Shown: positions 2,650 to 37,732 of the stretch, piece after piece | How positions within the stretch are numbered: the first letter of the stretch is position 1 | Layout: each line of letters begins with the position of its first letter | Virus record (IMG/VR): IMGVR_UViG_3300023199_000016 | Span: 1-59,811 of that record | Origin: a virus | Taxonomy: Duplodnaviria; Caudoviricetes | Direction: 5' to 3' (one strand) | Length of the DNA stretch: 59,811 nt | The notes under the pieces: model-generated | What the model was told of the DNA's origin: nothing | Database searches by the model: none | Seen by the model: only the letters and a program-made list of their open reading frames with translations | Translations under genes and position numbers: made by a program

Positions 2650-4910
2650 TCGTTGTCCTCCTGAAAGTCTGCCATCGTCGCCGTATGTACTGCACCACCC
2701 GTGCGCACTTCGCGCATCGCGTATGCAATCGCCCACTTCATCACGCGATCATCGTGCGCACCCGGGTCCGCCTCGAACTTGCCGTTCTTCTGAAGTCGAA
2801 ACGTCTGCATCTCGTTCAGCCCATCACGATCGTGGAAGCGATGCGGGTTCTCTTCAACAAAGTCAGCCAATCGGTTGAGCATTGTCGGTCGTGTCTCGCT
2901 GTTCGTTGACCAACCTGCACGACCGTCTCTGAAGTGGAAGAGTTGACGTGTTCGCTTCCAGCCCAGCTCTTGCATTGCTTGAATAACGGCGTGCCCGTGG
3001 TTCTCTCGCTCAACTCCAACGAGCGCATTGTTATACATCTTCGCATACTGAACATTGAGCTTCGCTAAGTACTTCGGCTTGAAGACGCCGTGCACTGAGC
3101 AAACGGTTTCACCCGTCTCTTTGTCAAGAAAGCCCGTCCCATTTGGATCACACCCGGGTATGCCTTCTGACGTATCACATCCCGCCACGTACTTGCGACC
3201 GGACGCGGGCTTCTTCCAGATGAGAACGTAACCCGACCCACCACCTGCTTCACGAACGAGCTTCGGTTTCGGCTTGTCCTTAGGCAGCTCTCGTATGCGA
3301 TGCGCAATGATGTGCGGATTGAAGTAAGGCGTGCCTGCACTAAGGAAGCACGTTGCATCGTCCTCGGGATACTCCTGTGGGAACAGAATACGAAGACGTC
3401 GCTTCGCCGATCGACGCCACGCGAGTTGGTCGGGTGTCAAGTCGTGTTGTTCGACGAGTGCAGATTCCTCATCATCCAACGTATCAATGATCTGTGCAAT
3501 ACGATCCGGGTCGCCCTTCAGGTCAATGACGTTAGTCGGATCATCAAACCACCTCAAGAAGATCGGGTACCAATCGTTCTCTCGATTGCGTGCGCCGAAC
3601 CAAGTGGATGCAAACCAGTTCATTCCGTTGGGCGTGCTCTCAGCGATGAACTCACCGTGAGATGCTGCTTCAGTCAAACCGGACACGAGATCCTCTACAC
3701 GTTGCTGATCGTCATTGCACCATCGTGCAACTTCAGAGCCGTGCACGCGGTCAAGCGTCGAGCCTCGTGAAGGCGCATAGCCTCCCGCCGTTGCAATCGT
3801 AAAGATGCTATGCAGCTCTTGCGATTCGAGTGCACGCTGATTGCCGAGGCCTTTCAGTATTGGTGCTTGAGGGTCACGGCGATGAAACCGTTGTGCAATC
3901 TTGAAGATTGTAAGCGTGTCCTTATCCGTATGCGCGAGCGTCAGGCACTGCGCTTCCGGTTTCGTGGACCACAGCTTATACGATTCGCCCTGCTCAACGG
4001 TTGTGATCCCGACACGCCGACTCTTCAGCACGATGATCAATACACCGGGTTGACCGGCATCACGTGCACGCATATGCGCCAGTCGTTTGTGCGCACAGTA
4101 TCGCTGTTGCACGGGGTACAATTCAAACGGTACCACGTTGCCCTCGCGTGTACGCACGTATAAACGATCGCGCGCGTACGCGCGTAGGGATTGCGGTTTG
4201 ACGATACGCTTGGGCGGGTCGCTTGCATTGAAGCGATGCTCAAACTCTTCGTCTGTGCCGGTCCAGTCTGCACGCACTTCACGATGCTCGTTCTTGTACG
4301 TTCCGTTGAGCACGTGCTTCATACCGACACGATGCATCGACGCATTGAGATCGTTGATCCAATGCGACGTGTACTGCGGGATAGACACGACGTGCATCTG
4401 TCCGTGACGCCTACGAATGAGGCGCCGCAAGCGTTGCATATCACTGAGCTCTGCTTGTTCGGCATTGCACATGATGACATGATCAACCGCTTGCACTGGC
4501 AAAGACTGCACCCTCCCATATTCGGCAAAGTGCAGTTCACTTGATGTATGTAAGAATCGCAGATGCGTACGGGTCAAGGCGACCAACTCCTTGGGCGTCA
4601 CCTCGAGCCATATCTTCAACCAACGTCGCTGCACCGCTGTGTTGGGTGATGCCAATACAGCGAGACGATTCGACTGCTTGCTCAGTGCAACCATCTCGTG
4701 TGCAAGGAGCGACTTGTCTACGCCCGAGTCGAACCACTCGGGGTCGGACGTTAGACAAAGCACGGTGCTCTTATCGTCCTCGCGTGCTGCACGTCGTGCA
4801 GGAGGATCGTCAGGCAACGTGAATTGAAGTTGTACGTTCTTCGTCAACATCTGCGATGAATCGAATCGTTCAATCAATGGGAGCGGTGAATGCAGCACCC
4901 GCGGCGGCAA
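2646..4910 (-). CDS. terL: terminase large subunit with N-terminal extension (start may be ATG at 4850)
   Basis: LKSRRVGITT Walker A, HGSEVA Walker B, ESTPNG coupling motif, RNase H-like nuclease AGCDTSEG...VERENHG...HDDRVM. Confidence 0.9.
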   Translation of the reverse strand: MPPRVLHSPLPLIERFDSSQMLTKNVQLQFTLPDDPPARRAAREDDKSTVLCLTSDPEWFDSGVDKSLLAHEMVALSKQSNRLAVLASPNTAVQRRWLKIWLEVTPKELVALTRTHLRFLHTSSELHFAEYGRVQSLPVQAVDHVIMCNAEQAELSDMQRLRRLIRRRHGQMHVVSIPQYTSHWINDLNASMHRVGMKHVLNGTYKNEHREVRADWTGTDEEFEHRFNASDPPKRIVKPQSLRAYARDRLYVRTREGNVVPFELYPVQQRYCAHKRLAHMRARDAGQPGVLIIVLKSRRVGITTVEQGESYKLWSTKPEAQCLTLAHTDKDTLTIFKIAQRFHRRDPQAPILKGLGNQRALESQELHSIFTIATAGGYAPSRGSTLDRVHGSEVARWCNDDQQRVEDLVSGLTEAASHGEFIAESTPNGMNWFASTWFGARNRENDWYPIFLRWFDDPTNVIDLKGDPDRIAQIIDTLDDEESALVEQHDLTPDQLAWRRSAKRRLRILFPQEYPEDDATCFLSAGTPYFNPHIIAHRIRELPKDKPKPKLVREAGGGSGYVLIWKKPASGRKYVAGCDTSEGIPGCDPNGTGFLDKETGETVCSVHGVFKPKYLAKLNVQYAKMYNNALVGVERENHGHAVIQAMQELGWKRTRQLFHFRDGRAGWSTNSETRPTMLNRLADFVEENPHRFHDRDGLNEMQTFRLQKNGKFEADPGAHDDRVMKWAIAYAMREVRTGGAVHTATMADFQEDNE

Positions 4911-19780: not shown

Positions 19781-20173
19781 CTACTTTCCTTTCTCTTCGT
19801 CGTCGTTCTGAAGTTCGTCGAGCTTTCGTTGAAGATCAAGCACTTGGTTCGCAGCGCGTGTCAGTCGCTTGATGAGTGGGGAATTCGTCAACAAGCTTAG
19901 GCGTTCTTCGATCGTTTCGATATGCGCTTGAATGCGAGGTATCTTCCGCTCTGCCTCTGCTTGTTTCTGACGCATGTCCTCTTGCTTCCGACGAAGCTCG
20001 GCAATCTGACGTTCCCACGCTTTGATACGTTGGTCACCATGATCACGATTGGACACATGAGCGTTCAACGCTTGACGGTTATAATCGAGTGCTTCACGTA
20101 AGCTTTCGATCTCGGCCATCAATTCGCTTTGGGACTTTGGTATCTTGCGCTTAGTCCTTGCCTTCTTGGTCAT
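19781..20173 (-). CDS. coiled-coil hypothetical protein
   Basis: Heptad-rich 130 aa; conserved RBS. Confidence 0.7.
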   Translation of the reverse strand: MTKKARTKRKIPKSQSELMAEIESLREALDYNRQALNAHVSNRDHGDQRIKAWERQIAELRRKQEDMRQKQAEAERKIPRIQAHIETIEERLSLLTNSPLIKRLTRAANQVLDLQRKLDELQNDDEEKGK

Positions 20174-20199
20174 GCTACTTTCCTTTCATTCTTTCTACG

Positions 20200-20236
20200 A
20201 ATCAAACGACTGCACCGGCCTTTCGACCGGTGCAGT
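20200..20236 (-). terminator. GAAA-tetraloop hairpin, terminator-like
   Basis: ACTGCACCGGTC-GAAA-GGCCGGTGCAGT followed by CGTTTGATT. Confidence 0.5.
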
Positions 20237-20284
20237 GCGACTTCATACGAAGCGTTGGGTTTCGGTTGAAACGAACGAAGTGCT

Positions 20285-20812
20285 TCAGTCTTCGTTCTCT
20301 TCTTCCTCCTCGTCGCCTTCCATTTCGGCGAGGGCACCGAGGAGACCTTGTGCGGCATCTTCGTCGATGCCTTGCGCCTTGAGGACTGCGGCAACATCCA
20401 CGTCCTGCTTCTTGAGGCGACCGACCAACTCGAGCATGGTCTTCTGAACCTTCTTGAGTCGGTTCGCTGCCTGGCGGGTTTCCTTGTCGCCGAGGGTGCG
20501 TGCTTCTTCGGCTTTCGCTCTGAACTCTTCGGCTTTCGTTTCGTATTCAGCAGCCTTCATATCGAAGTACGTCGCCTCACTGGCGAAGTCCTTCTTCTTG
20601 AGAGGCTTGTGCTTCGACGAATCGAAGTCGTCCGGGATTTCCTTGAAGGGATAGACATCGGGATCGTCCGAGTCGACAAGCGGGTGTACCACTTTCTTCG
20701 GCTTGGCCGCCGACTCGTCCTTCGAGCCCGGGCGTGAACCGCCGGTATTCGTCTTGACGTTTGCCTTCTTACGAGCGGTTGCACTCTGACGATTTGCGGA
20801 TCGCTTAGCCAT
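20285..20812 (-). CDS. hypothetical protein with basic N-terminus and acidic C-terminus
   Basis: 175 aa; GAAAGGA RBS; strong codon bias. Confidence 0.7.
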   Translation of the reverse strand: MAKRSANRQSATARKKANVKTNTGGSRPGSKDESAAKPKKVVHPLVDSDDPDVYPFKEIPDDFDSSKHKPLKKKDFASEATYFDMKAAEYETKAEEFRAKAEEARTLGDKETRQAANRLKKVQKTMLELVGRLKKQDVDVAAVLKAQGIDEDAAQGLLGALAEMEGDEEEEENED

Positions 20813-20883
20813 TTCATTGTCCTTTCTTTGACTTGGCTTGGTGCCTCACATGAGGCGTGACCCAGAACGAACATACACGATGG

Positions 20884-21291
20884 TCAATTCTGCTTTGCGT
20901 TTCGACGCATTGCTTCATTGGCCATCACACGTTTGAGAGTTTGATCTTCGTGCTGTTGGGTAGCATACGCTTCGGGGAAGATCGCATCCTTCAACTTCTT
21001 TGGCATCGATTGCATATTCGTTGCTTTGAGGCCAGCAAGTTGAAGTTTGATCTTTGCGAGTTGGCACGCTGATTGGTACAACTCTTCTGCACAATCACAA
21101 CGGCGAGTACGAACACGCACGTCGAGTGCAATTGCTCGTGCAAGCTGGTGAGCAAGAAAGTTCCGAACGTAGATGGGCGAGCCCTCGATACCAACGTCGG
21201 GGTGCCCATCAACGAACACTTGAAGAGCGTACGTGTCAGATGACGTACAACACAACACGAATAAGAGATCGGTTTCCTGTTCGTCAGTCAT
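20884..21291 (-). CDS. hypothetical early protein
   Basis: Conserved RBS directly downstream of hammerhead 1. Confidence 0.65.
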   Translation of the reverse strand: MTDEQETDLLFVLCCTSSDTYALQVFVDGHPDVGIEGSPIYVRNFLAHQLARAIALDVRVRTRRCDCAEELYQSACQLAKIKLQLAGLKATNMQSMPKKLKDAIFPEAYATQQHEDQTLKRVMANEAMRRNAKQN

Positions 21292-21310
21292 TCTACTTTC
21301 CTTTCGCTTT

Positions 21311-21380
21311 GGGCAGTCTCATCAGACTGGCTTGCCCAAGGTCCAGTGACGTCCGATCAAATGATCGGGCGTTTCGACTT
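21311..21380 (-). ncRNA. type II hammerhead ribozyme, copy 1 (predicted cleavage 21348/21347)
   Basis: AGUC-GAAA-stem III (CGCCCGAUC/GAUCGGACG)-UC-stem I (ACUGG/CCAGU)-CUGAUGA-GACU; loop I GGGC pairs with 3' GCCC (pseudoknot). Confidence 0.9.
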
Positions 21381-21381
21381 G

Positions 21382-21642
21382 TCAGATATGATGCGTGAAG
21401 ATGCGACCGGGAATCTTATCCCACTCTTCAACGTCTTCAAGTTCGATTCCTGCATAGCCGTGTTCAATCGCAAAGCGTGCCACACGCACCGCTTCAGAAC
21501 GATCGGCCGCCGCAATGTCGATTTCATCGCCGGGCAAACCGTGTTCATCACGCGTGAATGCTGTCCAGCGTTTCAGATGATCACCGTTGTTGTGCTGATC
21601 GCCGTCGAAGACATCGGCAAACTTGTTCTCTTGCAGTCTCAT
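21382..21642 (-). CDS. hypothetical early protein (86 aa)
   Basis: ATG at 21642 with conserved RBS; flanked by ribozymes. Confidence 0.65.
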   Translation of the reverse strand: MRLQENKFADVFDGDQHNNGDHLKRWTAFTRDEHGLPGDEIDIAAADRSEAVRVARFAIEHGYAGIELEDVEEWDKIPGRIFTHHI

Positions 21643-21672
21643 TCTACTTTCCTTTCGTTTCGTTCGTTTCGC

Positions 21673-21745
21673 GGGCAGTCTCATCAGACTGGCTTGCCCA
21701 AGGTCCAGTGACGCCCGGTCGATTGATGACCGGACGTTTCGACTT
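21673..21745 (-). ncRNA. type II hammerhead ribozyme, copy 2 (predicted cleavage 21710/21709)
   Basis: Same core; stem III CGUCCGGUC/GACCGGGCG. Confidence 0.9.
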
Positions 21746-22256
21746 ACTCTTCAACGAAGTAGTCGGCGTAGTGTGCGATGCGATTGTTGTGATGCGTCTC
21801 TGCATCGGCCTTTTCTTGGCAGTAGTGCCCGTGGTGCAGGCCGCCGCATTCACGGTTCCACACGTGAGAGGTCCAACGAGCATTTGATGTCCAGCCTTCA
21901 CCGCGATCAATCAGAACCGAAACGCAACACCCGTTGGGTTCGGCAACGTGATCGAGGACGACTGCATCAGAACCGAATGCTCGTTGTGTATCCAACTCCA
22001 AGCGACTAAGTTCTTCGCCCGTCAACGGATTCTTAGAAGCAACGAAGCAAGTCGGACAATACATGTTGAGGCCGACTTCTTTGAACACATCAGCGTCACC
22101 CCATCGTCCACATCGTTCGCAGGCAACGAGATTCTCGTCTTCGATTGCATTCTCGACTGCATCACGCACTTCGTCGTGCGACCGTACGGTGGTTGTGTCC
22201 GGAATGTCCCATTCACAGATCATCGAGCCGTCATCTTCAGTCATGTAAACCTTCAT
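21744..22256 (-). CDS. hypothetical early protein with Zn finger (170 aa)
   Basis: ATG at 22256 with conserved RBS; CERCG...CPTC. Confidence 0.65.
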   Translation of the reverse strand: MKVYMTEDDGSMICEWDIPDTTTVRSHDEVRDAVENAIEDENLVACERCGRWGDADVFKEVGLNMYCPTCFVASKNPLTGEELSRLELDTQRAFGSDAVVLDHVAEPNGCCVSVLIDRGEGWTSNARWTSHVWNRECGGLHHGHYCQEKADAETHHNNRIAHYADYFVEE

Positions 22257-22289
22257 ACTACTTTCCTTTCGTTTCGTTCGTTTCGCTTC

Positions 22290-22356
22290 GGGCAGTCTCA
22301 TCAGACTGGCTTGCCCAAGGTCCAGTGACCGGAGCATTGTGCTCCGGTTTCGACTT
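22290..22356 (-). ncRNA. type II hammerhead ribozyme, copy 3 (predicted cleavage 22327/22326)
   Basis: Same core; stem III CCGGAGC/GCUCCGG. Confidence 0.9.
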
Positions 22357-22726
22357 AGTCGGTGTTGAGGTCGTCATCCCAATCAGCAACGCCGTCCTCA
22401 TCATAGTCGTCATTCTCTTCGTCGAATTCATCCCACTCGTCGATGTCGTCGTCGTCGAATTCATCCCACTCGTCGATGTCGTCGTCGTCTGCTTCGTTGT
22501 CGGGATTCGACAAGTCCTTCAAGAGATCGCCGAGGTCAGCGTATCCGTCAGCATACGCATCGTCGGTGAAGCCTTCGTCATAGACGTCTTGTGCAATCGA
22601 AACGACGTCCCACTTCCCGTCGGACACCAAATAGATTGCAGTGCAAAGCAATTCGGAAGTCGATCCATCAAAGATCGACACCTCGCCGTTGGCATGCACA
22701 TCAACGATCATTCGTGTTCGTGACAT
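22355..22726 (-). CDS. highly acidic early protein (DNA-mimic candidate)
   Basis: About 37% D/E, only four K/R; first gene after the control region. Confidence 0.65.
   Translation of the reverse strand: MSRTRMIVDVHANGEVSIFDGSTSELLCTAIYLVSDGKWDVVSIAQDVYDEGFTDDAYADGYADLGDLLKDLSNPDNEADDDDIDEWDEFDDDDIDEWDEFDEENDDYDEDGVADWDDDLNTD
22421..22486. repeat. 2 x 33-bp tandem repeat (DDDIDEWDEFD)
   Basis: gtcgaattcatcccactcgtcgatgtcgtcgtc repeated exactly twice. Confidence 0.9.
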
Positions 22727-22773
22727 TCTACTTTCCTTTCACTTTCATTGGTTTGACGTTCAAACGTAAACAC

Positions 22774-22813
22774 AAATAGAAAGACCGGCTCGCGATTGTT
22801 TCACGCAAGCCGG
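22774..22813 (-). terminator. terminator/attenuator in the early leader
   Basis: CCGGCTTGCG...CGCGAGCCGG followed by TCTTTCTATTT. Confidence 0.55.
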
Positions 22814-22990
22814 ACGATTGCGAAAGGAACGAAAGGATTTGTATTCGGCTTAGAACTTACTAACGGTTGGGCTCAGGATTCGGTCGCTTGTCGCAAGCTC
22901 CTCACTTGCCGTAGACTATTCCGCGTCACGAAACGCTTCAAACGAAACGCACCGTGCCGGTCCGTCACCGTGTTCACTTCTTCGCACTGT

Positions 22991-23003
22991 GTTGTCAAAG
23001 AGC
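22991..23003 (-). promoter_or_regulatory. boxA antitermination element
   Basis: GCTCTTTGACAAC matches the rrn/lambda boxA consensus GCTCTTTAACAA; lies in an untranslated leader upstream of a terminator. Confidence 0.6.
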
Positions 23004-23156
23004 CGGGCCAAGCTTTCCGTTTCGCACTGGGCGTCGAGCAACCAACCTCATCGGACTACGGACGTGCTTGCAACGTGTTGCTCTTCCGATCGTTTCACGG
23101 CAGTTTGAAATGACAGGAGCGGTGCGGCCGATCGGATTGCCTTGACCTGTCGTTCA

Positions 23157-23185
23157 ATCGTATCGGCCTGATCCGGTCCAGTCGA
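23157..23185 (-). promoter_or_regulatory. putative early promoter
   Basis: TCGACT-17 bp-TACGAT (4/6 matches in each box). Confidence 0.35.
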
Positions 23186-23217
23186 TCAATTGAACCGATA
23201 TTTGTGAAAGAAAGTAT

Positions 23218-23319
23218 CGTGCGTAACCCGTTACCGGACAACGACTTACGCACGGTCTTTCGGTTCATTTCCAAAGAATTCCCGTGCGTAACCCGTTGTC
23301 CAGAAACGACTTACGCACG
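23218..23319. repeat. two 37-bp imperfect palindromes CGTGCGTAACCCGTT-N7-AACGACTTACGCACG
   Basis: Copies at 23218-23254 and 23283-23319; identical arms, different 7-bp centres. Confidence 0.85.
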
Positions 23320-23508
23320 CCCGTAGAGGGCATTTGACGGGTCCCCGGTCCGCCGTACCCGATACTACCGGACCGGACCGGAAAGCGGGCCAGTCGTGAC
23401 GGACCGGACCCGGTTTGGGTCGTCCGCACCAGCCCGTATCGAATCGACGAACCGGGCGCCCTGATTGCACGATTCGGTTCGTAGTCGATCGACCGATCAC
23501 GCGACGAA

Positions 23509-25506
23509 TCAAGCCGCACGCGGGAGGTGGAACACAGCATCATCGGACGATGCTTCACGCCACGTTGACGTTGCATACCCGCCTTCCACAGTGATCGGCA
23601 CTCTAAACCGATTCTCTTCACCGTGCAATTCAAGTGTGTCACGAATGTATTGACGTACTTCATTGCTCTCTCCTACATCGCGTGAACAGGCGAATAAGAA
23701 TTCATCGTGCACGCACGCCGCGACACGAATGCCAAGATCACGAATCATCGAGTTATATCGCGGTGCGATCTGAACAAGCTTTGCTTTCATCACATCAGCA
23801 GCACAAGATTGAATGATCGAATTGAATGCGCGATAAGCAAACATTATTGGGAGATGGCGTCGGCGACCGTACGCATTCTTGACCCAACCTCGTCCTTCGG
23901 CCAAAGCCACAGCACGATCACTCGTCGCTTTGATTCCTGGGAACGTTCTGTGATAGGTGTTGTACACCTTGCGTGCTCGACGTTCGCACAGTGATTGGAA
24001 GCGACGCGCTTTCTGGCTTGGTCGAATCTTTCCTGCTGCAATCTCTTCATCGACGACGTGCGAAAGGTCCTTCACCAAAGCAGGCTCGCCCGCGAGCATC
24101 GTAAGAACCTTATGCCGACCGCCACCATAGGCGATTGCAAAGTTGACGTTCTTAGCGGGCTTACGTGGTATGCCACACAAGTCAGCGACGAATTGATGAA
24201 AGTCCGTATCGGGATTCTCTGCATACGCCCTGATCGCTTTCTCATCGCGTATGTAGTGACAGATAAGTCGAAACTCGATTTGTGAGTAGTCGAATCGCAA
24301 GAAGCATTCTGAATCAACCGGATGAACCAGCTCTTTCGCCTCGGGCGATAACTGCTGTGCATTCGGGTTCTTACTTGACATTCGACCGGTGCGCACAGAT
24401 TGGTTGTACGTGGGATGCAAGATACCGTCGATGTTGAGCTCTTGATACGGACGAACAAAGAAACCAAGCAGAGTGTTGAGCTTACGCCACGAAAGCAACT
24501 TATCGAAGAACTCATACATCGAATCGTCGGACATCACCTCGGGCAATCGTTGATATGCGGCGAGAGCGTCCTTGTTGAACGACGGGTTGAGCAACGAATC
24601 ATCGCCCTCTTCCTCTGCCTTCTCGATTGAACCCTTCGTGTATTCAACGGCGGGCAGCCCGAAGTGGTTCATGATCACATCAGCGATGCTATCTGGTGTA
24701 CCCGGCGAGAACATTCGACCGACATGATTGTGCATCCATTCTTCAAGTTGCACCATACGTTGCAGTGTGGTGATCTCTTTGGCGACGAGTTCGGTTTCAT
24801 CAACTCTTAGGCCTTCGTTCTCGATGTCGTACAATACAGGCGTAAGAAGTATCTCGTTGTCCCACACCTCCTTGACTTCGCTTGGCCTTCGCTTGCACAT
24901 GTACTTCCACAGAAGCCGGTTCATCTGAACGTCCATGCATGCATAACGCCCAAGCAAGTCCGGTGGCGTATCGCCAAAGTCTTTGGTCTTCGCAGCCTCG
25001 AGCCAAGCGTGTAAGAGTTGCTCTTCACGAAGGTCCATGTCGAGCCAGTCTTCGCTCAAGTCTTTCAGCCCGTAGCCCTTGCCACCATATCCTCGGTCGC
25101 TGTCGATCAACTTTGCGAGAGTCATTGTGTCAACAAGACGCCCACCAAACTCTGCACCTTCATTCGTACAGAAGTGCGCATCAAACTTGACGTTGTGATT
25201 CACCCAATCATTATTGGCACCGACGGTCTCTTTCAACCAGCGATGCACCTGTTCAATCGGTAAGCATCGATGTTCGTAGTCCCAGTGGCGTATCGGTATG
25301 TAGTACGCATCCGGGTTATCATCGTGCGTTACTGCGATGCCGGCAATCTCATCGCCGTGCCATGGCGATATTGCCTTGAGCTTAGGGTCGCCGCTCGTCG
25401 TTTCAACGTCGAGGTATAGCTCGCGTGCACCACGCAAGTCCGGTAGTGGGTCGCCCGGCTCGAGCATCTTACATCGTTGACCGCTTTGTACTCGTAAGTC
25501 GATCAT
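23509..25506 (-). CDS. polA: DNA polymerase family A with 3'-5' exonuclease
   Basis: LDVETT, HNVKFD, YACMD exo motifs; RTGRMSS, FDYSQIEFR, AKNVNFAIAYG, VHDE. Confidence 0.95.
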   Translation of the reverse strand: MIDLRVQSGQRCKMLEPGDPLPDLRGARELYLDVETTSGDPKLKAISPWHGDEIAGIAVTHDDNPDAYYIPIRHWDYEHRCLPIEQVHRWLKETVGANNDWVNHNVKFDAHFCTNEGAEFGGRLVDTMTLAKLIDSDRGYGGKGYGLKDLSEDWLDMDLREEQLLHAWLEAAKTKDFGDTPPDLLGRYACMDVQMNRLLWKYMCKRRPSEVKEVWDNEILLTPVLYDIENEGLRVDETELVAKEITTLQRMVQLEEWMHNHVGRMFSPGTPDSIADVIMNHFGLPAVEYTKGSIEKAEEEGDDSLLNPSFNKDALAAYQRLPEVMSDDSMYEFFDKLLSWRKLNTLLGFFVRPYQELNIDGILHPTYNQSVRTGRMSSKNPNAQQLSPEAKELVHPVDSECFLRFDYSQIEFRLICHYIRDEKAIRAYAENPDTDFHQFVADLCGIPRKPAKNVNFAIAYGGGRHKVLTMLAGEPALVKDLSHVVDEEIAAGKIRPSQKARRFQSLCERRARKVYNTYHRTFPGIKATSDRAVALAEGRGWVKNAYGRRRHLPIMFAYRAFNSIIQSCAADVMKAKLVQIAPRYNSMIRDLGIRVAACVHDEFLFACSRDVGESNEVRQYIRDTLELHGEENRFRVPITVEGGYATSTWREASSDDAVFHLPRAA

Positions 25507-25508
25507 GT

Positions 25509-26015
25509 TTACTTGCTTGCTTTGCTTTCGTTGATAAGACCACCGGGCTGGAAGACCAGCCCTTTCTTTGATTCATACGCTTCAACATACGATTCATCGC
25601 CGATCACAAGACGCCAATGTGTCACACCCGCAAGCTCAAGAATCTGCAAGCCCCGATCGTCACTGTAGAAGTTTGACCAATACACTAAGTCGATTGCACC
25701 GCTGTTGACGATTGCAGTGGCGCATCTCCAGCACGGTGCGGTCGTGCAGTATAATGTTGCGTCTTTGATCGCTTGTGAATCGAGCTTGTTGATTGCGTTC
25801 TGCTCAGCGTGTGCACAACCACAGTCTTGCTTGATACCGGAGCAGAACGAGTGAGGCAGCTTTCGTGCCGGTCCGTTGTATCCGATTGAATGCACGGCGC
25901 TGAAGTCCTTGGGAAATACGATTGCACCACATGCTAGTCGCTTACATACTGAAAGCGCGGCAAGCTCATGGGCGAATCGAGCCATCACGATAAGCTTACG
26001 CATTGATCGTTGCAC
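25509..26015 (-). CDS. dCMP deaminase
   Basis: IGYNG, HAEQNA, APCWRCA; GTG start after GAAAGGAAAG. Confidence 0.9.
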   Translation of the reverse strand: MQRSMRKLIVMARFAHELAALSVCKRLACGAIVFPKDFSAVHSIGYNGPARKLPHSFCSGIKQDCGCAHAEQNAINKLDSQAIKDATLYCTTAPCWRCATAIVNSGAIDLVYWSNFYSDDRGLQILELAGVTHWRLVIGDESYVEAYESKKGLVFQPGGLINESKASK

Positions 26016-26595
26016 GGTGCTTTCCTTTCGTATTGAAGACAAGTCCAGTGCGCTCTTGTTCATGTCTTCGATCAAGATACTGATCGACGATGTCATTGGC
26101 AAACTGGCTTGGCCACCGTTCACCATTGGAAACTATCGGGTAGTCGACCTTGCAAACACCGGAGTCACTAAGTCGAATGAACTCATTGTTCACTTGCACG
26201 ATCTCAGTAAAGCGATACATCTCTTTACTTTGATCGCACTTGGCCCATTGATCCGCGAGGAAACGATTATGATTATCCCCTCCTCGCTCAGCGATACAAA
26301 GCACGACGAATCCGCAGTGCAGAGTTGTCCAAGCGTCGAGAGTTTGTAAGCCCGCGGCGCTAAGCGTCTCTTGATTCTGAAGTGCTTGACCGTATGCCTG
26401 ACGACTCAAGTAGAACCGATCCCACACGACGTTCGGATTCATCAACGGAATGTAGTCGGTATACTTATCAAACGACTCGGGTAACTTACTAAGAGGCAAC
26501 GGTATGTGCGACTCGCCCAGCTCGTTCAATCGTTTGACGAGTGCACGAACAAGAGTCGTCTTGCCAACAAGATCGGTTCCTTCAACGATAATCAT
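25996..26595 (-). CDS. deoxynucleoside monophosphate (thymidylate-kinase-like) kinase
   Basis: IIVEGTDLVGKTT P-loop; WDRFYLS. Confidence 0.85.
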   Translation of the reverse strand: MIIVEGTDLVGKTTLVRALVKRLNELGESHIPLPLSKLPESFDKYTDYIPLMNPNVVWDRFYLSRQAYGQALQNQETLSAAGLQTLDAWTTLHCGFVVLCIAERGGDNHNRFLADQWAKCDQSKEMYRFTEIVQVNNEFIRLSDSGVCKVDYPIVSNGERWPSQFANDIVDQYLDRRHEQERTGLVFNTKGKHRATINA

Positions 26596-30801: not shown

Positions 30802-33774
30802 TTAGAACTCCTCTTCCTCTTCATCAACAAAGTCCGGTCGGTCGGCCTTCGCCGCGTCGCCGGAATCACGCAACGTACGAAGCATGTCAATGAAGCCCGG
30901 TGTCTTTCGATACGTTCGGTCACAGCGTGTAAGCGCGTTCTTACGAACAAGCAATGATAGAAGCTTGGTTGCTCGCTCACGCGTCCACCCGCACCAATCG
31001 CATATGTCAGCAAATGCGATGTTGTCCGTTGCCAACATCTTCAAGACGAAGTCCGACGGGAAGGGCACATCAGTGAGAATACGATCGCGCACTCGTCGTG
31101 AATCATCTGGTGTCATACTGGTTGCGGCGAGCATTGCAGAAGAGAACTCTTTATATCCGCAAGCGTTATCAGAATACAACCTATCGAGAGTTTCTGCGAT
31201 GAACTCGACGTGACACCGTCGAATCACCAGCACGTTACGGTCGTCATCATCGTGACTGAACGTTCGCGCCGCTAAGCCCGCTGATAATCGTGCTAACTTG
31301 AATCGCATTGAGCCTCGATCAACGATCGGCATTGATTCACTGTACATTCCGCACAACCACACTGCTTTATCAAGGATCGCTTCTTCTGCTGCATTGGTGA
31401 ATCGTACTTGTGGCACGCCGCGGGTCCACGCCCAAAGAATGTTTCGTCTGCATAATTCCGATGTGTACTGATGCGGCACCTTTGGTCGCTTGCGCATCAA
31501 CTTGTTTATCTCGTTGACCGGCACTTGTCCCTCGGCGACGATAAGCACGGCATCAAATCGACGAATATCTTCAAGCGAGCCGATCAACTCTTTCACTGCC
31601 TCCACACCAAAGTTGTACGCAGCAAGCGGTCGATCACTGCGTGGATTGCTTACCATCACAAGCCGCGTTCGTGCATGTGATCGTCGCTTCTCGATCTTTG
31701 GTATTTCAGCGATGCCAGTCGATCGCATATCGGTCAACTTACCAAGCACCTCGGTGCTGGTCCCTTTGATCTCTTCAAGAATCACCAGTCTCTTGTCGTG
31801 CGTTGGGATCACGCCCCACGTAACGAACCACCGATTATTGCCTAACTGCTGTAAGCCACCAAGCAGGCCAGCAACCGTTGCATTCTTACATTCAATTCGT
31901 TCACCCAAACCGTAGTGACGCATCATACGAAGCGTGCTTTCAGATTTGCCCTGTGCAGTATCACCAACGATCAAGAGCTCGCCCCAACCTTTCTCCAACC
32001 TGCTGTCAAACTCGAACAAGAGTGGCGTGTGATAGATAACGTCAACCATCAAGTGCATATCACGACGATGAAAGATGCGTGTCACATTTGCTTCAAGATC
32101 TTCATACACTTGATTCAATCGTGCGTGCAACGATTCAACGGTCCACTCTTTCGGCTTGAAGATCGCGAGCTCATCAAGCTCATCCTCTTTCGGTTTGAAT
32201 TGGTTTAGGCTGTCTTCGGATAGTGCAAGATCGTTGGCGAGCAAGATTGCTTGCTGCGTCTTTGGATGCGGCCACGATCGACCAATCAACCGATAGGCGA
32301 CATTCGACTCCACCTCTTTCGATACAATGTATGCCGGTCGTGTAACGTGTTGGTCATCGCGTCGGCCTATTTCAAGTTGGGGCGTTAGTCTAACATCGTG
32401 TACGTTGTAGAACGTTCGCGGTGTGAACTCTACAACGTCGCACGGCGGCATGCACAACGCATCCAGTATCCACTTGCGATGTTTATCCGTTGACGTTTCA
32501 ACCATACCGATAAGTGCGGGCGATTGTGCAGAGATCGTTAGGTCAACAAATCCGTGTTCATCTGGTTTCTTGTGAAAGACTGGACATTCAATACAGAACT
32601 CTTTGTTTCGGGTGCACGAGCATCGCACATCCTTTGGCAACAAGTACGGCGCCGTATCAATCGCCGACACAACGGCGGTCAATCGTACACGCTTCCCGGT
32701 TCGTTCTGCATCGGCGGCTTGATGAAGATCGATGTCCTCCGGTTCGTTACGATCAAGTGGTTCCTTTACTTGAAGCGCAGGTGGTTCCCAAAGCGGCGCA
32801 CGCTTTATCAAACCGATAAGATCGGCGCTCGTCGCATCTTCACGGCCAAACCAATCATTCACATCGCCGTGTGGATACTTCGATTCATCAAGCGGCAATT
32901 CAGCCACTCGAACTTTCTTAGCGTATGCGCTTAGCATCGCCGCTACTCGATCAGTCGCTTTCTTACCTTCTGTATCAATGTCGAATAGGATGACAACGTC
33001 TTTGCCTTCAAGCAAGTGCGACAGTGATGGGTCCCAATTGCTCTCGCCGCCCGTTGCACTTACGGCGCCAATCTTCGACGGGTTCAAGTAGTGCTTACAC
33101 AGAACCGCTTTGAGTTCGCCGCCACAGATGACTATCGTATTGAATCGGTCAACTTGTTCTTCTTGATACAAGCGAAGCTTTCCGTAGCCCCGCGTGTTAC
33201 GCATCTTCTGATCACCAGGCGCACCGGGCATGTATCGACGAATGTTGACGATGAACCCGTCTTTGTCTTGCACGGGTATCGTGATGCGGCCTTTGTTTAT
33301 GCCAAGCTTTGCGTCACGAATCATCTCATCAGTTATGCCGCGCTTACGAAGTTCGCGAAGAGAAGGATTCGCTTCCCAGATTGCGTTGTGATATTGTTCG
33401 ACGAGCTTGGGGTTGAGAACTTTCTCTTGACGCAGACCGGCGTAACGCGAGCACAAGTCTTCATAGACCGCGACACGCGTTGTGTTCAATGCATTCGCTA
33501 AGAATGATAGGATGTCGCCACTGGCCTCGCACCCGGCGGTGTAACATCGCCACTGGTTCTTCTCAACGTTGATCGATGCGGAAGGGTTCTTATCGTCGTG
33601 ACACGGACAGGCCACACGAGCTTCATCCCCTTGAAGATCGTACTTCCAGCCTATGCGCTCCAACTCAGCAAGCGCGTTTATCTTTGTCAAGTCGATGTTC
33701 GCCACTACACGCCTCAACTTCAAGCACAAGAAAAGTTGCACGACCAATAAAGGCCGTGCAACCGTATCTCCCAC
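30802..33774 (-). CDS. DnaG-type primase (CHC2 Zn finger + TOPRIM) fused to an MCM-like AAA+ helicase
   Basis: CPCHDDKNPS...WRCYTAGC; FDID; CSC...CIECP; GDTAQGKS, TVAGLLGG, VILEE, IRRFD; true start may be slightly downstream. Confidence 0.85.
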   Translation of the reverse strand: MGDTVARPLLVVQLFLCLKLRRVVANIDLTKINALAELERIGWKYDLQGDEARVACPCHDDKNPSASINVEKNQWRCYTAGCEASGDILSFLANALNTTRVAVYEDLCSRYAGLRQEKVLNPKLVEQYHNAIWEANPSLRELRKRGITDEMIRDAKLGINKGRITIPVQDKDGFIVNIRRYMPGAPGDQKMRNTRGYGKLRLYQEEQVDRFNTIVICGGELKAVLCKHYLNPSKIGAVSATGGESNWDPSLSHLLEGKDVVILFDIDTEGKKATDRVAAMLSAYAKKVRVAELPLDESKYPHGDVNDWFGREDATSADLIGLIKRAPLWEPPALQVKEPLDRNEPEDIDLHQAADAERTGKRVRLTAVVSAIDTAPYLLPKDVRCSCTRNKEFCIECPVFHKKPDEHGFVDLTISAQSPALIGMVETSTDKHRKWILDALCMPPCDVVEFTPRTFYNVHDVRLTPQLEIGRRDDQHVTRPAYIVSKEVESNVAYRLIGRSWPHPKTQQAILLANDLALSEDSLNQFKPKEDELDELAIFKPKEWTVESLHARLNQVYEDLEANVTRIFHRRDMHLMVDVIYHTPLLFEFDSRLEKGWGELLIVGDTAQGKSESTLRMMRHYGLGERIECKNATVAGLLGGLQQLGNNRWFVTWGVIPTHDKRLVILEEIKGTSTEVLGKLTDMRSTGIAEIPKIEKRRSHARTRLVMVSNPRSDRPLAAYNFGVEAVKELIGSLEDIRRFDAVLIVAEGQVPVNEINKLMRKRPKVPHQYTSELCRRNILWAWTRGVPQVRFTNAAEEAILDKAVWLCGMYSESMPIVDRGSMRFKLARLSAGLAARTFSHDDDDRNVLVIRRCHVEFIAETLDRLYSDNACGYKEFSSAMLAATSMTPDDSRRVRDRILTDVPFPSDFVLKMLATDNIAFADICDWCGWTRERATKLLSLLVRKNALTRCDRTYRKTPGFIDMLRTLRDSGDAAKADRPDFVDEEEEEF

Positions 33775-35659: not shown

Positions 35660-37693
35660 TCAAACGTCTCCTTTCTCAGGAGCGGTTTCGAGGATACGCT
35701 TCATGACATCGCGAATGTCCGCGAACTCCATGGCGTCGATCTTCTTCTGTGTCACGCGTGCTCGAATCTCTTCATCAATTGTACCCGGCACAACGTAGTC
35801 TCGATAGGTGACGTGCACGCGTGTTCCGATACGATGTGATCGCTTCTCGCTTTGTGAACGATTGCCAAGCGACCAATTCTGTGAGAAGTAACCAACGAGT
35901 GTCACGTTGGTGCCGGTGTCTTCAGGCTTACCATCTGAGCCGGGTGGGTACCCAATCAAGTTCAAACCAGTGCCACCCGCCGCTGCATTAGCAATGAACA
36001 CCTTTACACTTGGGTCGTGGTTGAAGTCGTAGACTGCTTTCTCTCGGTCCGCTTCAGATGTTGAACCGTAGAACGCACGACACTCGACGCCCGCTTCAGT
36101 AAGCGCCTTGATCGTTGCCTTGATGTCGGGAATCCAACACGCCCATATGATCATCTTATCGTTGGGCTTCAATGACTTGGCGTCTTCAACGATCGCATCG
36201 AGTTTCGGATTGCCTCCGGGTATCTGCTGTGCTTCACCGCGAATTGGATTGCCTTCATCGTCAACGTCATCCCACTTGATATGACCTGACGTGATCTGCG
36301 CTAGTCGCAGCAACTTCGTAAGAATGTGCTCGACCGTTGACTCTTTCATCTGTCCGCCTACGCTGATCTCAGCTTGAAGCTTCTTCTGCATGTCAGTGTA
36401 GAGCTTATGCTGCGTCGGCGTCATTGAGATTTCACGAATGTCGTACACCTGTTCGGGGAGATCAAGGTTGGCTTCATTCGTATCAATGACAAACGCAAGT
36501 CGTGCGAGACGCTCCTGAAGAAGTGGAACGTTACGATAGCCGATGAGTTTCTGAAAGCCCCGCTGTGTTGATTCAAACCGACCGTGAAACCCGCGAAAGT
36601 TCTTCCACGAATTGAAACCGGACAGGCCCTCACCTAAGAACTCAAACTGCGGGAAGATGTCGAGCAACGTGTTCAACACTGGCGTGCCAGTCAAACACAT
36701 ACGCTTCTTCGCGCATTCACGTAACTCCATCATCTTCTTGAATCGTTTGGTTTGGGTTGACTTGATGTAGTGCGATTCATCCAGCACCACGAGGTCCCAG
36801 TCACAAAGACGAATTGCTTTCCACGTTCGCTCGACCGCTTCATACGAAGCAACGATGACGGTGTACTTGAAGCCGTCTTCTTGATCCATTGCTTCAACGA
36901 GAAGCTTCGTTCGTTTCAACTCACCGCCACGAAGCACTGTCACACGACCGGATTCGACCGCAAACTTCTCAAACTCGTAGGCCCAGTTCATACGAACGTT
37001 CTTGGGCGCCACGACCAACACACGCATCATGCGTTGCTCTTCGCGATGAATCTTGGCGGCTTCGTAACACACGCGTGCAATGACGACTGGCGTCTTGCCC
37101 GTGCCTTGCTCCATGAACAGAGCAAAGCCTTCCTGTTCGATTGCGCTCGCGAATGCAGTGAGTTGGTATGGTGACAACGGATATTCGTGGTGCTGCACGA
37201 AGTCGTCGGGAATGGGCGGGAGTTGCTTCTTCAGTTTGAATAACGCTCGATGATGCGCACCTTTGGTTGCCTCGAGGAATCGAAGCAAGTTGAGCTGATG
37301 GATCATCTTTGCATCCGGTTCCCAATACACTTGATCGACCGGCCACATCGCATTGATGATAATCGAAGTGAAGTCAGTCGCCGCGAGAACCCAACGACCG
37401 TAGCCCAACTCTTTCCGCTCGGGCACGCGTCGAAACCAGTTATTCATTGCGTTGTGTGAACCGCTGATGCGTCGAGGCGCTTCACCCTCGGGCAAACCCC
37501 AAGTAGTTTCGGCGAATGCTTGGCACTCAAATGATCGACCGTCTTGCGTCATCTTGACATGCAAGCGATCGTTCGTATTCATATGAAGTTCAGTGAGAAG
37601 CTTCTTGGTGCCTTCGCTTAGCGGTTCAACCAATGTGCGTGAAGCACCACGTGCAAGCTCTTGAAGCGCTTGCTCAGGAGAGTTACTTTCCAT
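35660..37693 (-). CDS. SNF2-family DEAH helicase
   Basis: EQGTGKT, VLDESH, LTGTP, GGTGLNL, QSEKRSHRIG. Confidence 0.92.
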   Translation of the reverse strand: MESNSPEQALQELARGASRTLVEPLSEGTKKLLTELHMNTNDRLHVKMTQDGRSFECQAFAETTWGLPEGEAPRRISGSHNAMNNWFRRVPERKELGYGRWVLAATDFTSIIINAMWPVDQVYWEPDAKMIHQLNLLRFLEATKGAHHRALFKLKKQLPPIPDDFVQHHEYPLSPYQLTAFASAIEQEGFALFMEQGTGKTPVVIARVCYEAAKIHREEQRMMRVLVVAPKNVRMNWAYEFEKFAVESGRVTVLRGGELKRTKLLVEAMDQEDGFKYTVIVASYEAVERTWKAIRLCDWDLVVLDESHYIKSTQTKRFKKMMELRECAKKRMCLTGTPVLNTLLDIFPQFEFLGEGLSGFNSWKNFRGFHGRFESTQRGFQKLIGYRNVPLLQERLARLAFVIDTNEANLDLPEQVYDIREISMTPTQHKLYTDMQKKLQAEISVGGQMKESTVEHILTKLLRLAQITSGHIKWDDVDDEGNPIRGEAQQIPGGNPKLDAIVEDAKSLKPNDKMIIWACWIPDIKATIKALTEAGVECRAFYGSTSEADREKAVYDFNHDPSVKVFIANAAAGGTGLNLIGYPPGSDGKPEDTGTNVTLVGYFSQNWSLGNRSQSEKRSHRIGTRVHVTYRDYVVPGTIDEEIRARVTQKKIDAMEFADIRDVMKRILETAPEKGDV

Positions 37694-37732
37694 GACGTTT
37701 CCTTTCACAATACTTTCGTTTCGATACTTTCA

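What the first reader, a model, noticed from the sequence alone, without database searches (positions are those of the whole stretch)
21311..22356. Three pseudoknotted type II hammerhead ribozymes punctuate the early operon, one between each stop codon and the next RBS
Seen in sequence: a ~40-nt identical block recurs three times on the transcribed strand. It folds as AGUC/GACU stem II, GAAA, stem III, GUC cleavage triplet, ACUGG/CCAGU stem I and the invariant CUGAUGA core, and loop I GGGC can pair with the 3' GCCC as a pseudoknot. Stem III differs in sequence in each copy but always pairs (CGCCCGAUC/GAUCGGACG, CGUCCGGUC/GACCGGGCG, CCGGAGC/GCUCCGG), which is covariation evidence. Each ribozyme starts at or overlaps a stop codon and ends shortly before an identical GAAAGGAAAGUAG RBS. 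Established: CUGAUGA/GAAA/GUC is the hammerhead catalytic core. Inference: self-cleavage cuts the early polycistronic RNA into monocistronic units without host RNase, functionally like RNase III processing of T7 early mRNA. The 86-aa and 170-aa genes would be excised with 5'-OH and 2',3'-cyclic-phosphate ends, so they could be stabilised or even circularised (ribozyme reversal or RtcB). The identical blocks may also act as recombination points for swapping early gene cassettes.
Basis: partly seen in the sequence, partly recalled or inferred. Interest (0 to 1): 0.9.

Follow-up and report, generated by a model that had tools for sequence, protein, structure and literature searches.

The report
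Three hammerhead ribozymes between phage genes
Three copies of a well-known self-cutting RNA, the type II hammerhead ribozyme, sit between small genes of an uncultured phage; the reading is right, but this arrangement was described in prophages in 2011, so it is a new example and not a new kind of thing.

Summary
On the - strand, which carries 61 of 70 greedy ORF calls, three elements at 22287-22357, 21670-21746 and 21308-21381 have the full type II hammerhead layout. That layout is an open stem II, GAAA, a stem III hairpin, GUC, a stem I hairpin, CUGAUGA and a loop I/3'-tail pseudoknot. They share an identical 40-nt block. Each begins at or 2 nt after a stop codon and ends 19-33 nt before the next start.

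Rfam Hammerhead_II is the best match for all three, but below its gathering score (28.3, 23.9 and 27.9 bits against 37). A covariance model built without the window rows scores them 45.7-48.6 bits, with the next hit at 14.1. Stems I and III and the pseudoknot covary across viral homologues.

Phages with a related PolA carry up to 7 such ribozymes, each flanking one small ORF.

Perreault et al. 2011 (PMC3088659) already described type II hammerheads, the pseudoknot, and clustered ribozymes flanking single prophage genes. They also proposed mRNA processing and raised the idea of circular RNA.

Cleavage, the "early operon" label, circularisation and a recombination role are untested here. Verdict: a new member of a known kind, of modest interest.

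The parts
22287..22357 (-). Type II hammerhead, upstream copy (HH3). Predicted cleavage between 22327 and 22326. Stem III has 8 bp and is unrelated in sequence to the other two copies.
   Evidence: 70.4 bits, R1; 48.6 bits, R2 built without window rows; Rfam RF02276, 27.9 bits, GA 37.
21670..21746 (-). Type II hammerhead, middle copy (HH2). Predicted cleavage between 21710 and 21709. Stem III has 9 bp including one G.U pair.
   Evidence: 65.2 bits; 45.7 bits; Rfam, 23.9 bits.
21308..21381 (-). Type II hammerhead, downstream copy (HH1). Predicted cleavage between 21348 and 21347. Stem III has 9 positions with one C.A mismatch.
   Evidence: 68.1 bits; 47.9 bits; Rfam, 28.3 bits, E 0.0031.
22355..22726 (-). 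123-aa very acidic ORF, the first gene of the cluster. Its TAA overlaps stem II of HH3 by 1 nt. It matches no family.
21744..22256 (-). 170-aa Cys/His-rich ORF flanked by HH3 and HH2. It matches no family above threshold.
21382..21642 (-). 86-aa ORF flanked by HH2 and HH1. It matches no family.
20884..21291 (-). 135-aa ORF downstream of HH1. It matches no family.
22257..22286 (-). Purine-rich unstructured leader with a Shine-Dalgarno block between HH3 and the start at 22256. It is near-identical to the leader after HH2.
   Evidence: D1, 97% over 34 nt.
21643..21669 (-). Leader with a Shine-Dalgarno block between HH2 and the start at 21642.
   Evidence: D1.
21292..21307 (-). Shorter leader with the same Shine-Dalgarno block between HH1 and the start at 21291.
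   Evidence: D1.
20209..20236 (-). Terminator-like hairpin (12 bp, then a T-rich tail) after the 175-aa ORF at 20285-20812. It is the likely 3' end of the transcription unit.
22727..23508 (-). ~780-nt stretch without a convincing ORF between PolA (23509-25506) and the cluster. It is the presumed promoter or regulatory region, but nothing was identified.
   Evidence: 0 sigma-70-like sites.

Best explanation
The three elements are genuine type II hammerhead ribozymes. They are transcribed as part of a multi-gene - strand RNA in an uncultured ~60-kb tailed phage with a tape-measure protein.

Each ribozyme folds as the RNA is made. Stem II closes over the stop codon of the upstream gene, and the loop I/3'-tail pseudoknot holds stems I and II parallel. 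The RNA then cuts itself after the C of GUC. Three cuts turn one transcript into four pieces, and the 170-aa and 86-aa genes become single-gene mRNAs.

Because the topology is type II, both products are capped by a hairpin. Every upstream product keeps its stop codon and ends in the stem III hairpin with a 2',3'-cyclic phosphate. Every downstream product begins with a 5'-OH on the stem I hairpin, followed by an open purine-rich leader and a Shine-Dalgarno block.

The likely result is that decay and translation of neighbouring small accessory genes are uncoupled, much as synthetic ribozyme insulators do.

Shown here: sequence anatomy, family resemblance, covariation, position relative to ORFs, and conservation of the arrangement in related phages. 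Inferred: cleavage itself, co-transcription of the genes, and the effect on stability or expression.
For: 1. Core and helices. CUGAUGA, GAAA and GUC are all present. The pairs next to the core are G10.1-C11.1, A15.1-U16.1 and A1.1-U2.1.

2. Rfam. RF02276 is the best family for each copy over the whole model, 1-66 of 66.

3. Independent model. R2 was built from 13 viral hammerheads without the window rows. It gives 48.6, 47.9 and 45.7 bits, with the next best hit at 14.1.

4. Covariation across unrelated contigs. The alignment holds 16 sequences: 3 from the window and 13 from unrelated IMG/VR contigs.
- 93.8% of 306 cells pair, against 72.4% in shuffles.
- 14 of 20 pairs have changes on both sides, reached by 0 of 500 shuffles.
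- Slid controls pair at 25-39%.
- In the pseudoknot helix, 5 of 5 pairs change on both sides.

5. Covariation within the PolA-related group. In 28 hits (the 3 window copies plus 25 hits in PolA-related loci) aligned to model R1, 94.4% of cells pair and the covariation score is 0.829 against 0.183 in shuffles, reached by 0 of 500. That alignment was fitted to the model.

6. Synteny. Model R1 gave 29 hits in 9 of the 19 loci whose PolA is 33-48% identical. All are on the PolA strand and downstream of it. None occurs in the 61 loci at 25-30% identity.

7. Confinement to one region. Whole records hold 7 hits within 2.65 kb of a 68.8-kb genome, and 6 within 2.3 kb of another.

8. Rfam on relatives. 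Six hammerheads in these relatives pass Rfam's gathering score, at 41.2-60.8 bits.

9. Same grammar elsewhere. In L033, six successive intervals each hold one ORF of 67-145 aa. Each ORF's stop lies 0-4 nt inside the next ribozyme, and the start lies 14-33 nt after the previous one. Of 23 distinct viral pattern hits, 21 have an ORF ending within 15 nt upstream and 22 have an ORF starting within 70 nt downstream.

10. Core variation. In relatives the core varies at N7, the position that is free to vary (that N7 is free is recalled).

11. Literature.
- Triple prophage hammerhead arrays cleaved in vitro, and one cleaved in E. coli (PMC3088659, passages).
- Three type II hammerheads near phage-like genes cleave in vivo in Desulfovibrio vulgaris (PMC8782182, abstract and passages).
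- RiboJ raises protein 2-10-fold and transcript about 2-fold in E. coli (PMC6206723, abstract).
Against: - No copy reaches Rfam's gathering score of 37 bits (one search gave 0 hits).
- The whole-record search with RF02276 returned no match at E <= 10.
- Stem I has only 5 bp and stem II only 4 bp.
- The minimum-free-energy fold of each copy is a nested alternative at -28.6 to -33.1 kcal/mol, with a CAGUC/GACUG hairpin stacked on the GGGCA/UGCCC helix. The pseudoknot-free hammerhead fold is -18.3 to -24.4. A naive pseudoknot duplex of about -10 only makes the two folds roughly equal, so part of the RNA could misfold.
- HH1 has a C.A mismatch in stem III.
- No promoter was found, so co-transcription is assumed from gene order.
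- Predicted openness of the Shine-Dalgarno and start region is the same with 0, 150 or 300 nt of upstream RNA (0.57-0.74). Cleavage is therefore not predicted to unmask the ribosome-binding site.
- The direction of the effect depends on the host. In Bacillus, glmS ribozyme cleavage lowers expression through cellular RNases (PMC6765202, passage).
- Models R1 and R2 rest on sequences fetched with a pattern copied from the window's own core, so core identity is partly built in.
- 4 of 18 consensus hammerheads tested by Perreault et al. were inactive in vitro.
Confidence: 0.85

Rival explanations
1. The ribozymes are real but act as conditional, mainly negative, controls and not as constitutive processors. 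An inactive alternative fold competes with the active fold. Ribosomes terminating on the stop codon that overlaps stem II would also hold the ribozyme open. Cleavage would then be tuned by translation or by conditions, and the 5'-OH product might be a target for decay instead of a stabilised mRNA.
For: - The nested alternative fold is about as stable as hammerhead plus pseudoknot.
- The stop codons overlap or abut stem II in the window and in relatives, with the stop 0-4 nt inside the next ribozyme.
- Perreault et al. raise regulated cleavage for phage hammerheads (PMC3088659 discussion).
- glmS cleavage lowers expression through cellular RNases (PMC6765202).
Against: - No ligand-binding or extra domain is present.
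- Loop I and stem III are small.
- The alternative fold comes from a nearest-neighbour model that cannot score pseudoknots.
- Tested prophage arrays cleaved efficiently during transcription.
Confidence: 0.2
2. The identical 40-nt block plus leader is chiefly a DNA-level or RNA-level cassette junction. Homologous recombination between copies would add, delete or swap ribozyme-delimited genes. Alternatively, the excised RNAs would be ligated into circles by hammerhead reversal or by RtcB. Either is conceivable because any 5' half can pair with any 3' half through the shared stem II.
For: - The block is 100% identical over 40 nt in three copies, while stem III differs.
- The 40-mer was not found elsewhere in IMG/VR. 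That scan may leave out the window's own record and near relatives.
- A 307-nt contig in run X2 joins 21310 to 22290 across the repeat, removing 979 nt, which is exactly the two flanked genes.
- The genes between ribozymes are unrelated among genomes. BLASTP found 5 pairs among 28 proteins, none involving the window.
Against: - The X2 contig has depth 2.5. It crosses a 40-nt exact repeat in contigs from a word-based assembler, so it may be chimeric. X2 also holds a contig from inside the 'deleted' part (21788-21949).
- Copies in L033 and L040 are not identical to each other, so a common crossover block is not a property of the group.
- Circular or spliced products were not detected in the 2011 study.
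- No RNA data exist here.
Confidence: 0.08
3. These are repeated intergenic hairpin elements, acting as terminators, attenuators or protein-binding sites, that resemble a hammerhead by chance and do not cleave.
For: - Scores fall below Rfam's gathering score.
- Hammerhead-like consensus matches do arise by chance in large databases, and some consensus candidates are inactive (PMC3088659).
Against: - All invariant core bases are present in three copies.
- Three helices and the pseudoknot covary in register.
- No run of T follows the hairpins.
- Related phages carry Rfam-passing hammerheads at the same kind of site.
- The chance expectation for the motif is 0.14 against 3 exact matches.
Confidence: 0.04

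Closest known systems
Type II hammerhead ribozyme with a loop I/3'-tail pseudoknot (Rfam RF02276; Perreault et al. 2011, PMC3088659)
   Same: Same permuted topology, same invariant core, and a pseudoknot of at least 4 bp that starts directly after stem II. The context is a phage, as described there.
   Different: Stem I is shorter (5 bp against 9 in the Rfam model) and stem II is longer (4 bp). The copies therefore score 23.9-28.3 bits, under the 37-bit gathering score, and automated annotation misses them.
Clustered hammerheads flanking single genes in prophages: the triple arrays of Agrobacterium tumefaciens (around ardA), Azorhizobium caulinodans and Clostridium scindens (PMC3088659)
   Same: Three ribozymes lie within about 1 kb and flank individual small genes of varying identity on one transcript. 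Processing to single-gene mRNAs was proposed there, and circular RNA was considered. The first gene here is a very acidic protein; that it recalls an anti-restriction DNA mimic such as ArdA is a resemblance by composition only.
   Different: This is an uncultured, apparently non-integrated ~60-kb phage. The three copies share an identical 40-nt 3' half. Related phages reach 6-7 ribozymes in 2.3-2.65 kb. I could not see that paper's figures or supplements, so I cannot say whether arrays of that size were shown there.
Three type II hammerheads of Desulfovibrio vulgaris near phage-like genes (cyPhyRNA-seq, PMC8782182)
   Same: Type II copies sit beside hypothetical and phage-like genes, two of them a few hundred nt apart. 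The 3' fragment of 39 nt matches the size of the 3' part here. Cleavage was shown in vivo and in vitro.
   Different: Those are chromosomal, and no stop-ribozyme-RBS grammar was reported in the passages I read.
RiboJ and other synthetic ribozyme insulators placed before a ribosome-binding site (PMC6206723, abstract)
   Same: A self-cleaving ribozyme lies directly upstream of the ribosome-binding site. It removes upstream RNA and leaves a 5' hairpin. This is the same working principle as proposed here.
   Different: RiboJ is engineered and derived from a satellite RNA ribozyme (recalled). It is not a family member, and the parallel is functional only.
RNase III processing of phage T7 early polycistronic mRNA (recalled, not checked in a call)
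   Same: It cuts between cistrons and leaves hairpins at the new ends.
   Different: It needs a host enzyme acting on double-stranded RNA and gives different end chemistry.

Membership tests
Hammerhead ribozyme, type II (RF02276) | Invariant core: CUGAUGA, GAAA and a UH cleavage triplet | tested here: met
   All three copies carry CUGAUGA, GAAA and GUC.
Hammerhead ribozyme, type II (RF02276) | Three helices around the core, with stems I and III closed by loops and stem II open (the type II permutation) | tested here: met
   Stem II has 4 bp and is open. Stem III hairpins have 8-9 positions. The stem I hairpin has 5 bp. The layout aligns over the whole Rfam model.
Hammerhead ribozyme, type II (RF02276) | No mispair directly next to the core (10.1-11.1, 1.1-2.1, 15.1-16.1), the rejection rule of Perreault et al. 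| tested here: met
   G-C, A-U and A-U in all three copies. The rule is quoted from PMC3088659 methods.
Hammerhead ribozyme, type II (RF02276) | Pseudoknot of 4 or more bp between loop I and the bases just after stem II. It occurs in the majority of type II members and is not obligatory. | tested here: met
   GGGC(A) pairs with (U)GCCC in all three copies. The same register covaries in 13 other viral copies, with 5 of 5 pairs changed on both sides.
Hammerhead ribozyme, type II (RF02276) | Score at or above Rfam's gathering threshold (37 bits) | tested here: not met
   28.3, 23.9 and 27.9 bits, with 0 hits in gathering mode. This threshold is a curation cut-off, not a structural feature. The shortfall comes from four model stem I pairs that are absent here.
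Hammerhead ribozyme, type II (RF02276) | Helices supported by compensatory changes among homologues | tested here: met
   Between the window copies themselves there is one compensatory pair, plus one wholly different stem III.
Hammerhead ribozyme, type II (RF02276) | Mg2+-dependent self-cleavage after H17, giving 2',3'-cyclic phosphate and 5'-OH ends | not testable with these tools
   No RNA run was listed. A bench assay is needed.
Clustered prophage or phage hammerheads that process polycistronic mRNA (Perreault 2011) | Several ribozymes on the coding strand flanking single genes or short gene blocks | tested here: met
   One ORF lies between each pair of ribozymes here and in relatives.
Clustered prophage or phage hammerheads that process polycistronic mRNA (Perreault 2011) | The genes are co-transcribed on one RNA | tested here: inconclusive
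   The genes share a strand, gaps are short, and the only terminator-like hairpin lies after the fifth gene. No promoter was found and there are no RNA data.

The most novel reading that the evidence does not exclude
In a group of uncultured PolA-encoding tailed phages, 'stop codon, type II hammerhead, standard leader with Shine-Dalgarno, start codon' is a portable junction. It defines ribozyme-delimited single-gene cassettes in the variable accessory region downstream of PolA.

The junction would work at two levels. As RNA, it insulates each newly acquired gene from its neighbours. As DNA, the homogenised ribozyme halves are the crossover points through which cassettes are gained, lost and duplicated without a dedicated recombinase. 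The possible 979-nt deletion joint in run X2 would be one such event.
Probability: 0.1. Interest if true: 0.6.

Novelty: new member of a known kind. Interest (0 to 1): 0.3.

Why it matters
What bacterial and phage hammerheads are for is still open. A 2019 review says more work is needed to define their purpose (PMC6765202).

This window adds a clean example, and the follow-up adds three points:
- The strict stop-ribozyme-RBS-start grammar is widespread in viral contigs.
- A group of related phages carries arrays of up to seven ribozymes, each around one small, non-conserved ORF.
- Most of these copies fall below Rfam's gathering score. Only 5 of 25 model hits in seven related loci pass, and none of the three here, so routine annotation under-counts them.

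The type II permutation leaves a hairpin on both new RNA ends. That gives a simple reason why this permutation suits cuts between cistrons. These points sharpen a testable hypothesis but do not change what is known.

Tried and rejected
- Rfam in gathering mode over the whole window gave 0 hits. The genome search with RF02276 on the phage's own record gave 0 matches at E <= 10. The copies appear only in E-value mode on short stretches.
- The exact 40-nt block gave 0 hits in viral contigs. The phage's own record may be excluded from that scan.
- A type I/III-style pattern (CUGAUGA, gap, GAAA) found only the same three loci plus one chance match.
- PHROGs and Pfam returned nothing at the thresholds I used for the acidic 123-aa, the 86-aa and the 135-aa proteins, and only a 17-bit PHROG match of unknown function for the 170-aa protein.
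- The promoter scan found 0 sigma-70-like sites in 19800-23700. The host is unknown, so this says little.
- Expression: no RNA holder was listed, so nothing can be said on transcription or cleavage in vivo.
- Read laying on two DNA runs gave contigs only. Parts without cover in X2 are not evidence. The 979-nt joint is kept as a hint only.
- The idea that cleavage unmasks the ribosome-binding site is rejected. Predicted unpaired probability of positions -14 to +3 is 0.57-0.74 with or without upstream RNA.
- The per-sequence pseudoknot test with shuffled tails is too weak to use. 23 of 28 hits have a helix of at least 4 bp and 17 of 28 have at least 5 bp, but shuffled tails average 2.2-5.4 bp. 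The register-fixed covariation test is the one relied on.
- No cultured relative was found. The best GenBank phage match to PolA is an uncultured Caudoviricetes record at 39.9% identity, carrying one model hit far from its PolA. Four further PolA relatives, one of them complete, have no hit, so the trait is patchy.
- Rows dropped before a count. Alignment A2 used 13 of the 24 distinct pattern hits. The 11 left out (L002, L003, L005, L007, L010, L011, L012, L014, L015, L016, L020) have a 3-5-nt loop I and no pseudoknot. L009, L019 and L026 were duplicates.
- Literature. Searches found no paper that settles the function of phage hammerhead arrays. The supplements and figures of PMC3088659 (Figures 3 and S1-S3, Dataset S1) could not be seen and may show larger arrays or closer relatives.
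Full report
**What the window is**

The window is a whole IMG/VR virus record of 59,811 bp that CheckV rates 100% complete. A greedy ORF call puts 61 of 70 ORFs on the - strand.

PHROGs and Pfam give the following gene order, read along the - strand:
- portal (57520-59745)
- major head protein
- tape-measure protein (47229-50348)
- tail proteins
- helicase (35660-37708)
- primase (30802-33774)
- methyltransferase
- dCMP deaminase (25509-26126)
- family A DNA polymerase (23509-25506)
- terminase large subunit (2646-4910), much further on

The finding lies just downstream of PolA, after about 780 nt without a convincing ORF. It sits in a run of small genes that match no family.

**The observation**

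Reading the - strand shows three elements with the same order of parts:
- AGUC
- GAAA
- a hairpin
- GUC
- the ACUGG...CCAGU hairpin
- CUGAUGA
- GACU
- GCCC

The 15-nt core and tail motif occurs exactly three times, all on the - strand. Shuffles give 0.14 matches allowing up to two mismatches. A 40-nt block is identical in all three: 21311-21350, 21673-21712 and 22290-22329. In a DNA run that may be the source sample, this block is a separate contig at about three times the flanking depth.

There is one correction: stem III of the copy at 21308-21381 has a C.A mismatch.

**Is it a hammerhead?**

Rfam's gathering-mode scan found nothing, and a whole-record search with RF02276 also found nothing. 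In E-value mode, Hammerhead_II is the best family for each copy and aligns over the full model. The scores are 28.3, 23.9 and 27.9 bits against a cut-off of 37. The alignments show why: four of the model's nine stem I pairs have no counterpart in the 5-bp stem I here.

To get evidence that does not lean on that model, I scanned IMG/VR with a loose pattern made of the three core motifs and found 27 contigs. In all of them the unconstrained stretches form stems III and I. Where loop I is long, it pairs with the bases just after stem II.

I aligned the three window copies with 13 of the 24 distinct hits, namely those with a long loop I. The other 11 have a 3-5-nt loop and no pseudoknot. On this alignment:
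- 93.8% of cells pair, against 72.4% in shuffles and 25-39% when partners are slid.
- 14 of 20 pairs change on both sides.
- All five pseudoknot pairs covary in the register used by the window copies.

A covariance model built from the 13 foreign sequences alone scores the window copies at 45.7-48.6 bits, with nothing else above 14.1 bits. The caveat is that the foreign sequences were fetched with the window's own core motifs, so core identity is partly built in. The helices were not constrained by the pattern.

**Relatives**

PolA relatives in IMG/VR are distant, at 48% identity at best. Even so, 9 of the 19 closest loci carry 29 model hits. All lie on the PolA strand and downstream of it. 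None occurs in the 61 loci at 25-30% identity.

Whole-record searches show the hits are confined to one short region:
- seven in 2.65 kb of a complete 68.8-kb genome
- six in 2.3 kb at the end of an 87%-complete one
- four, one and two in three others

Six hammerheads in these relatives pass Rfam's own threshold at 41.2-60.8 bits. This ties the group to the curated family without using my models. By the same count, only 5 of the 25 model hits in those seven loci pass.

Covariation within this group is strong: 94.4% of cells pair, with a score of 0.829 against 0.183 in shuffles. That alignment was fitted to the model.

The trait is patchy. Four other PolA relatives, one of them complete, have none. 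The nearest GenBank record has one hit elsewhere in its genome.

**Grammar**

In the window and in relatives each ribozyme begins 0-4 nt inside, or directly after, the stop codon of a small ORF. The next start codon lies 14-42 nt beyond the ribozyme in nearly all cases. In L033, six successive intervals each hold exactly one ORF of 67-145 aa.

Among 23 distinct unrelated viral hits, 21 have an ORF ending within 15 nt upstream and 22 have one starting within 70 nt downstream.

The flanked proteins are not conserved. BLASTP found only 5 similar pairs among 28 proteins, none involving the window.

**How it most likely works**

By hammerhead chemistry, which is established, each element cuts after C17 and leaves a 2',3'-cyclic phosphate and a 5'-OH. 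The type II permutation has a consequence worth stating:
- The upstream product keeps its stop codon and ends in the stem III hairpin.
- The downstream product starts with the stem I hairpin, followed by an open purine-rich leader and the Shine-Dalgarno block.

Both new ends are therefore hairpin-capped, which types I and III cannot offer. I infer that the ribozymes uncouple the fates of neighbouring accessory genes on one transcript, in the way synthetic insulators such as RiboJ do. RiboJ raises protein 2-10-fold in E. coli (PMC6206723, abstract).

Whether the effect is stabilising depends on the host's RNases. glmS cleavage lowers expression in Bacillus (PMC6765202).

Two in-silico checks argue for caution. 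A nested alternative fold is about as stable as hammerhead plus pseudoknot. Cleavage is not predicted to change how open the ribosome-binding site is.

**What is already known**

Perreault et al. 2011 (PMC3088659; abstract and passages read; figures and supplements not seen) reported all of the following:
- the first natural type II hammerheads
- the loop I/3'-tail pseudoknot
- the proposal that long phage RNAs are processed to operon-length or single-gene-length mRNAs
- the idea of spliced or circular products, which they could not detect
- cleavage of three triple arrays in vitro and of one in E. coli, the latter flanking ardA

Type II hammerheads near phage-like genes cleave in vivo in Desulfovibrio vulgaris (PMC8782182). 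Three literature searches found nothing that settles the function.

**Untested extras**

- 'Early operon' is not shown. No promoter was found and no RNA run was listed.
- The recombination idea has one hint. A 307-nt, depth-2.5 contig in run X2 joins 21310 to 22290 across the repeat and deletes exactly the two flanked genes. A 40-nt exact repeat at low depth in word-based contigs can produce such a join by error, and X2 also holds a contig from inside the deleted part.
- The within-genome identity of the 40-nt block points to duplication or gene conversion in this genome. Stem III varies between copies, and the 40-mer has no match elsewhere in IMG/VR. This is not a general property of the group, since copies in L033 and L040 differ from one another.

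**Verdict**

The family assignment is well supported, at about 0.85 to 0.9 for genuine self-cleaving type II hammerheads. The functional reading is the standard one and remains an inference. This is a new member of a known kind.

The modest added value is threefold:
- arrays of up to seven ribozymes in PolA-related phages
- the strict stop-ribozyme-RBS grammar
- the fact that Rfam's threshold misses most of these copies

Interest is 0.3.

Noticed in passing
window 22727-23508: About 780 nt without a convincing ORF lie between PolA and the ribozyme cluster. The stretch holds two copies of a 37-nt imperfect palindrome (23218-23254 and 23283-23319, 84% alike, with the loop roughly inverted between copies) and short CCGGTCCGG-type direct repeats near 23380-23445. 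It could be an operator or promoter region, or a replication origin.
   Followed up: no
window 22416-22481: A 33-bp tandem duplication (97% identical) inside the acidic 123-aa gene lengthens its Asp/Glu-rich tract.
   Followed up: no
window 20173-22756: The same purine-rich leader and Shine-Dalgarno block precedes five or six successive genes (starts at 22726, 22256, 21642, 21291, a weaker one at 20812, and 20173). Only three of these junctions carry a hammerhead.
   Followed up: partly
window 21310/22290 (run X2): A 307-nt contig at depth 2.5 joins the two outer ribozyme copies across the 40-nt repeat and skips 979 nt. It is either a natural deletion variant lacking the 170-aa and 86-aa genes or an assembly artefact.
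   Followed up: partly
window 21305-21382, 21667-21748, 22284-22359 (- strand): The minimum-free-energy fold is a nested alternative that keeps the GGGCA/UGCCC helix but pairs CAGUC with GACUG. This would destroy stems I and II. It is roughly isoenergetic with hammerhead plus pseudoknot.
   Followed up: partly
L036 9621-9688; L033 9092-9160, 9618-9714; L030, L037, L028: Core variants occur in relatives. One copy has C at core position 4 (CCGAUGA) and still scores 53.1 bits in Rfam. Several others vary only at position 7, as CUGAGGA, CUGAAGA or CUGACGA.
   Followed up: no
L040 9098-9163 and 9908-9973: Two ribozyme junctions in one genome share the 3' half, the leader and the first codons (both ORFs start alike), while the two proteins did not match each other in BLASTP. 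This suggests gene conversion across junctions.
   Followed up: no
L033 12745-12816: A tRNA gene lies about 1.8 kb downstream of the seven-ribozyme array in a related phage.
   Followed up: no
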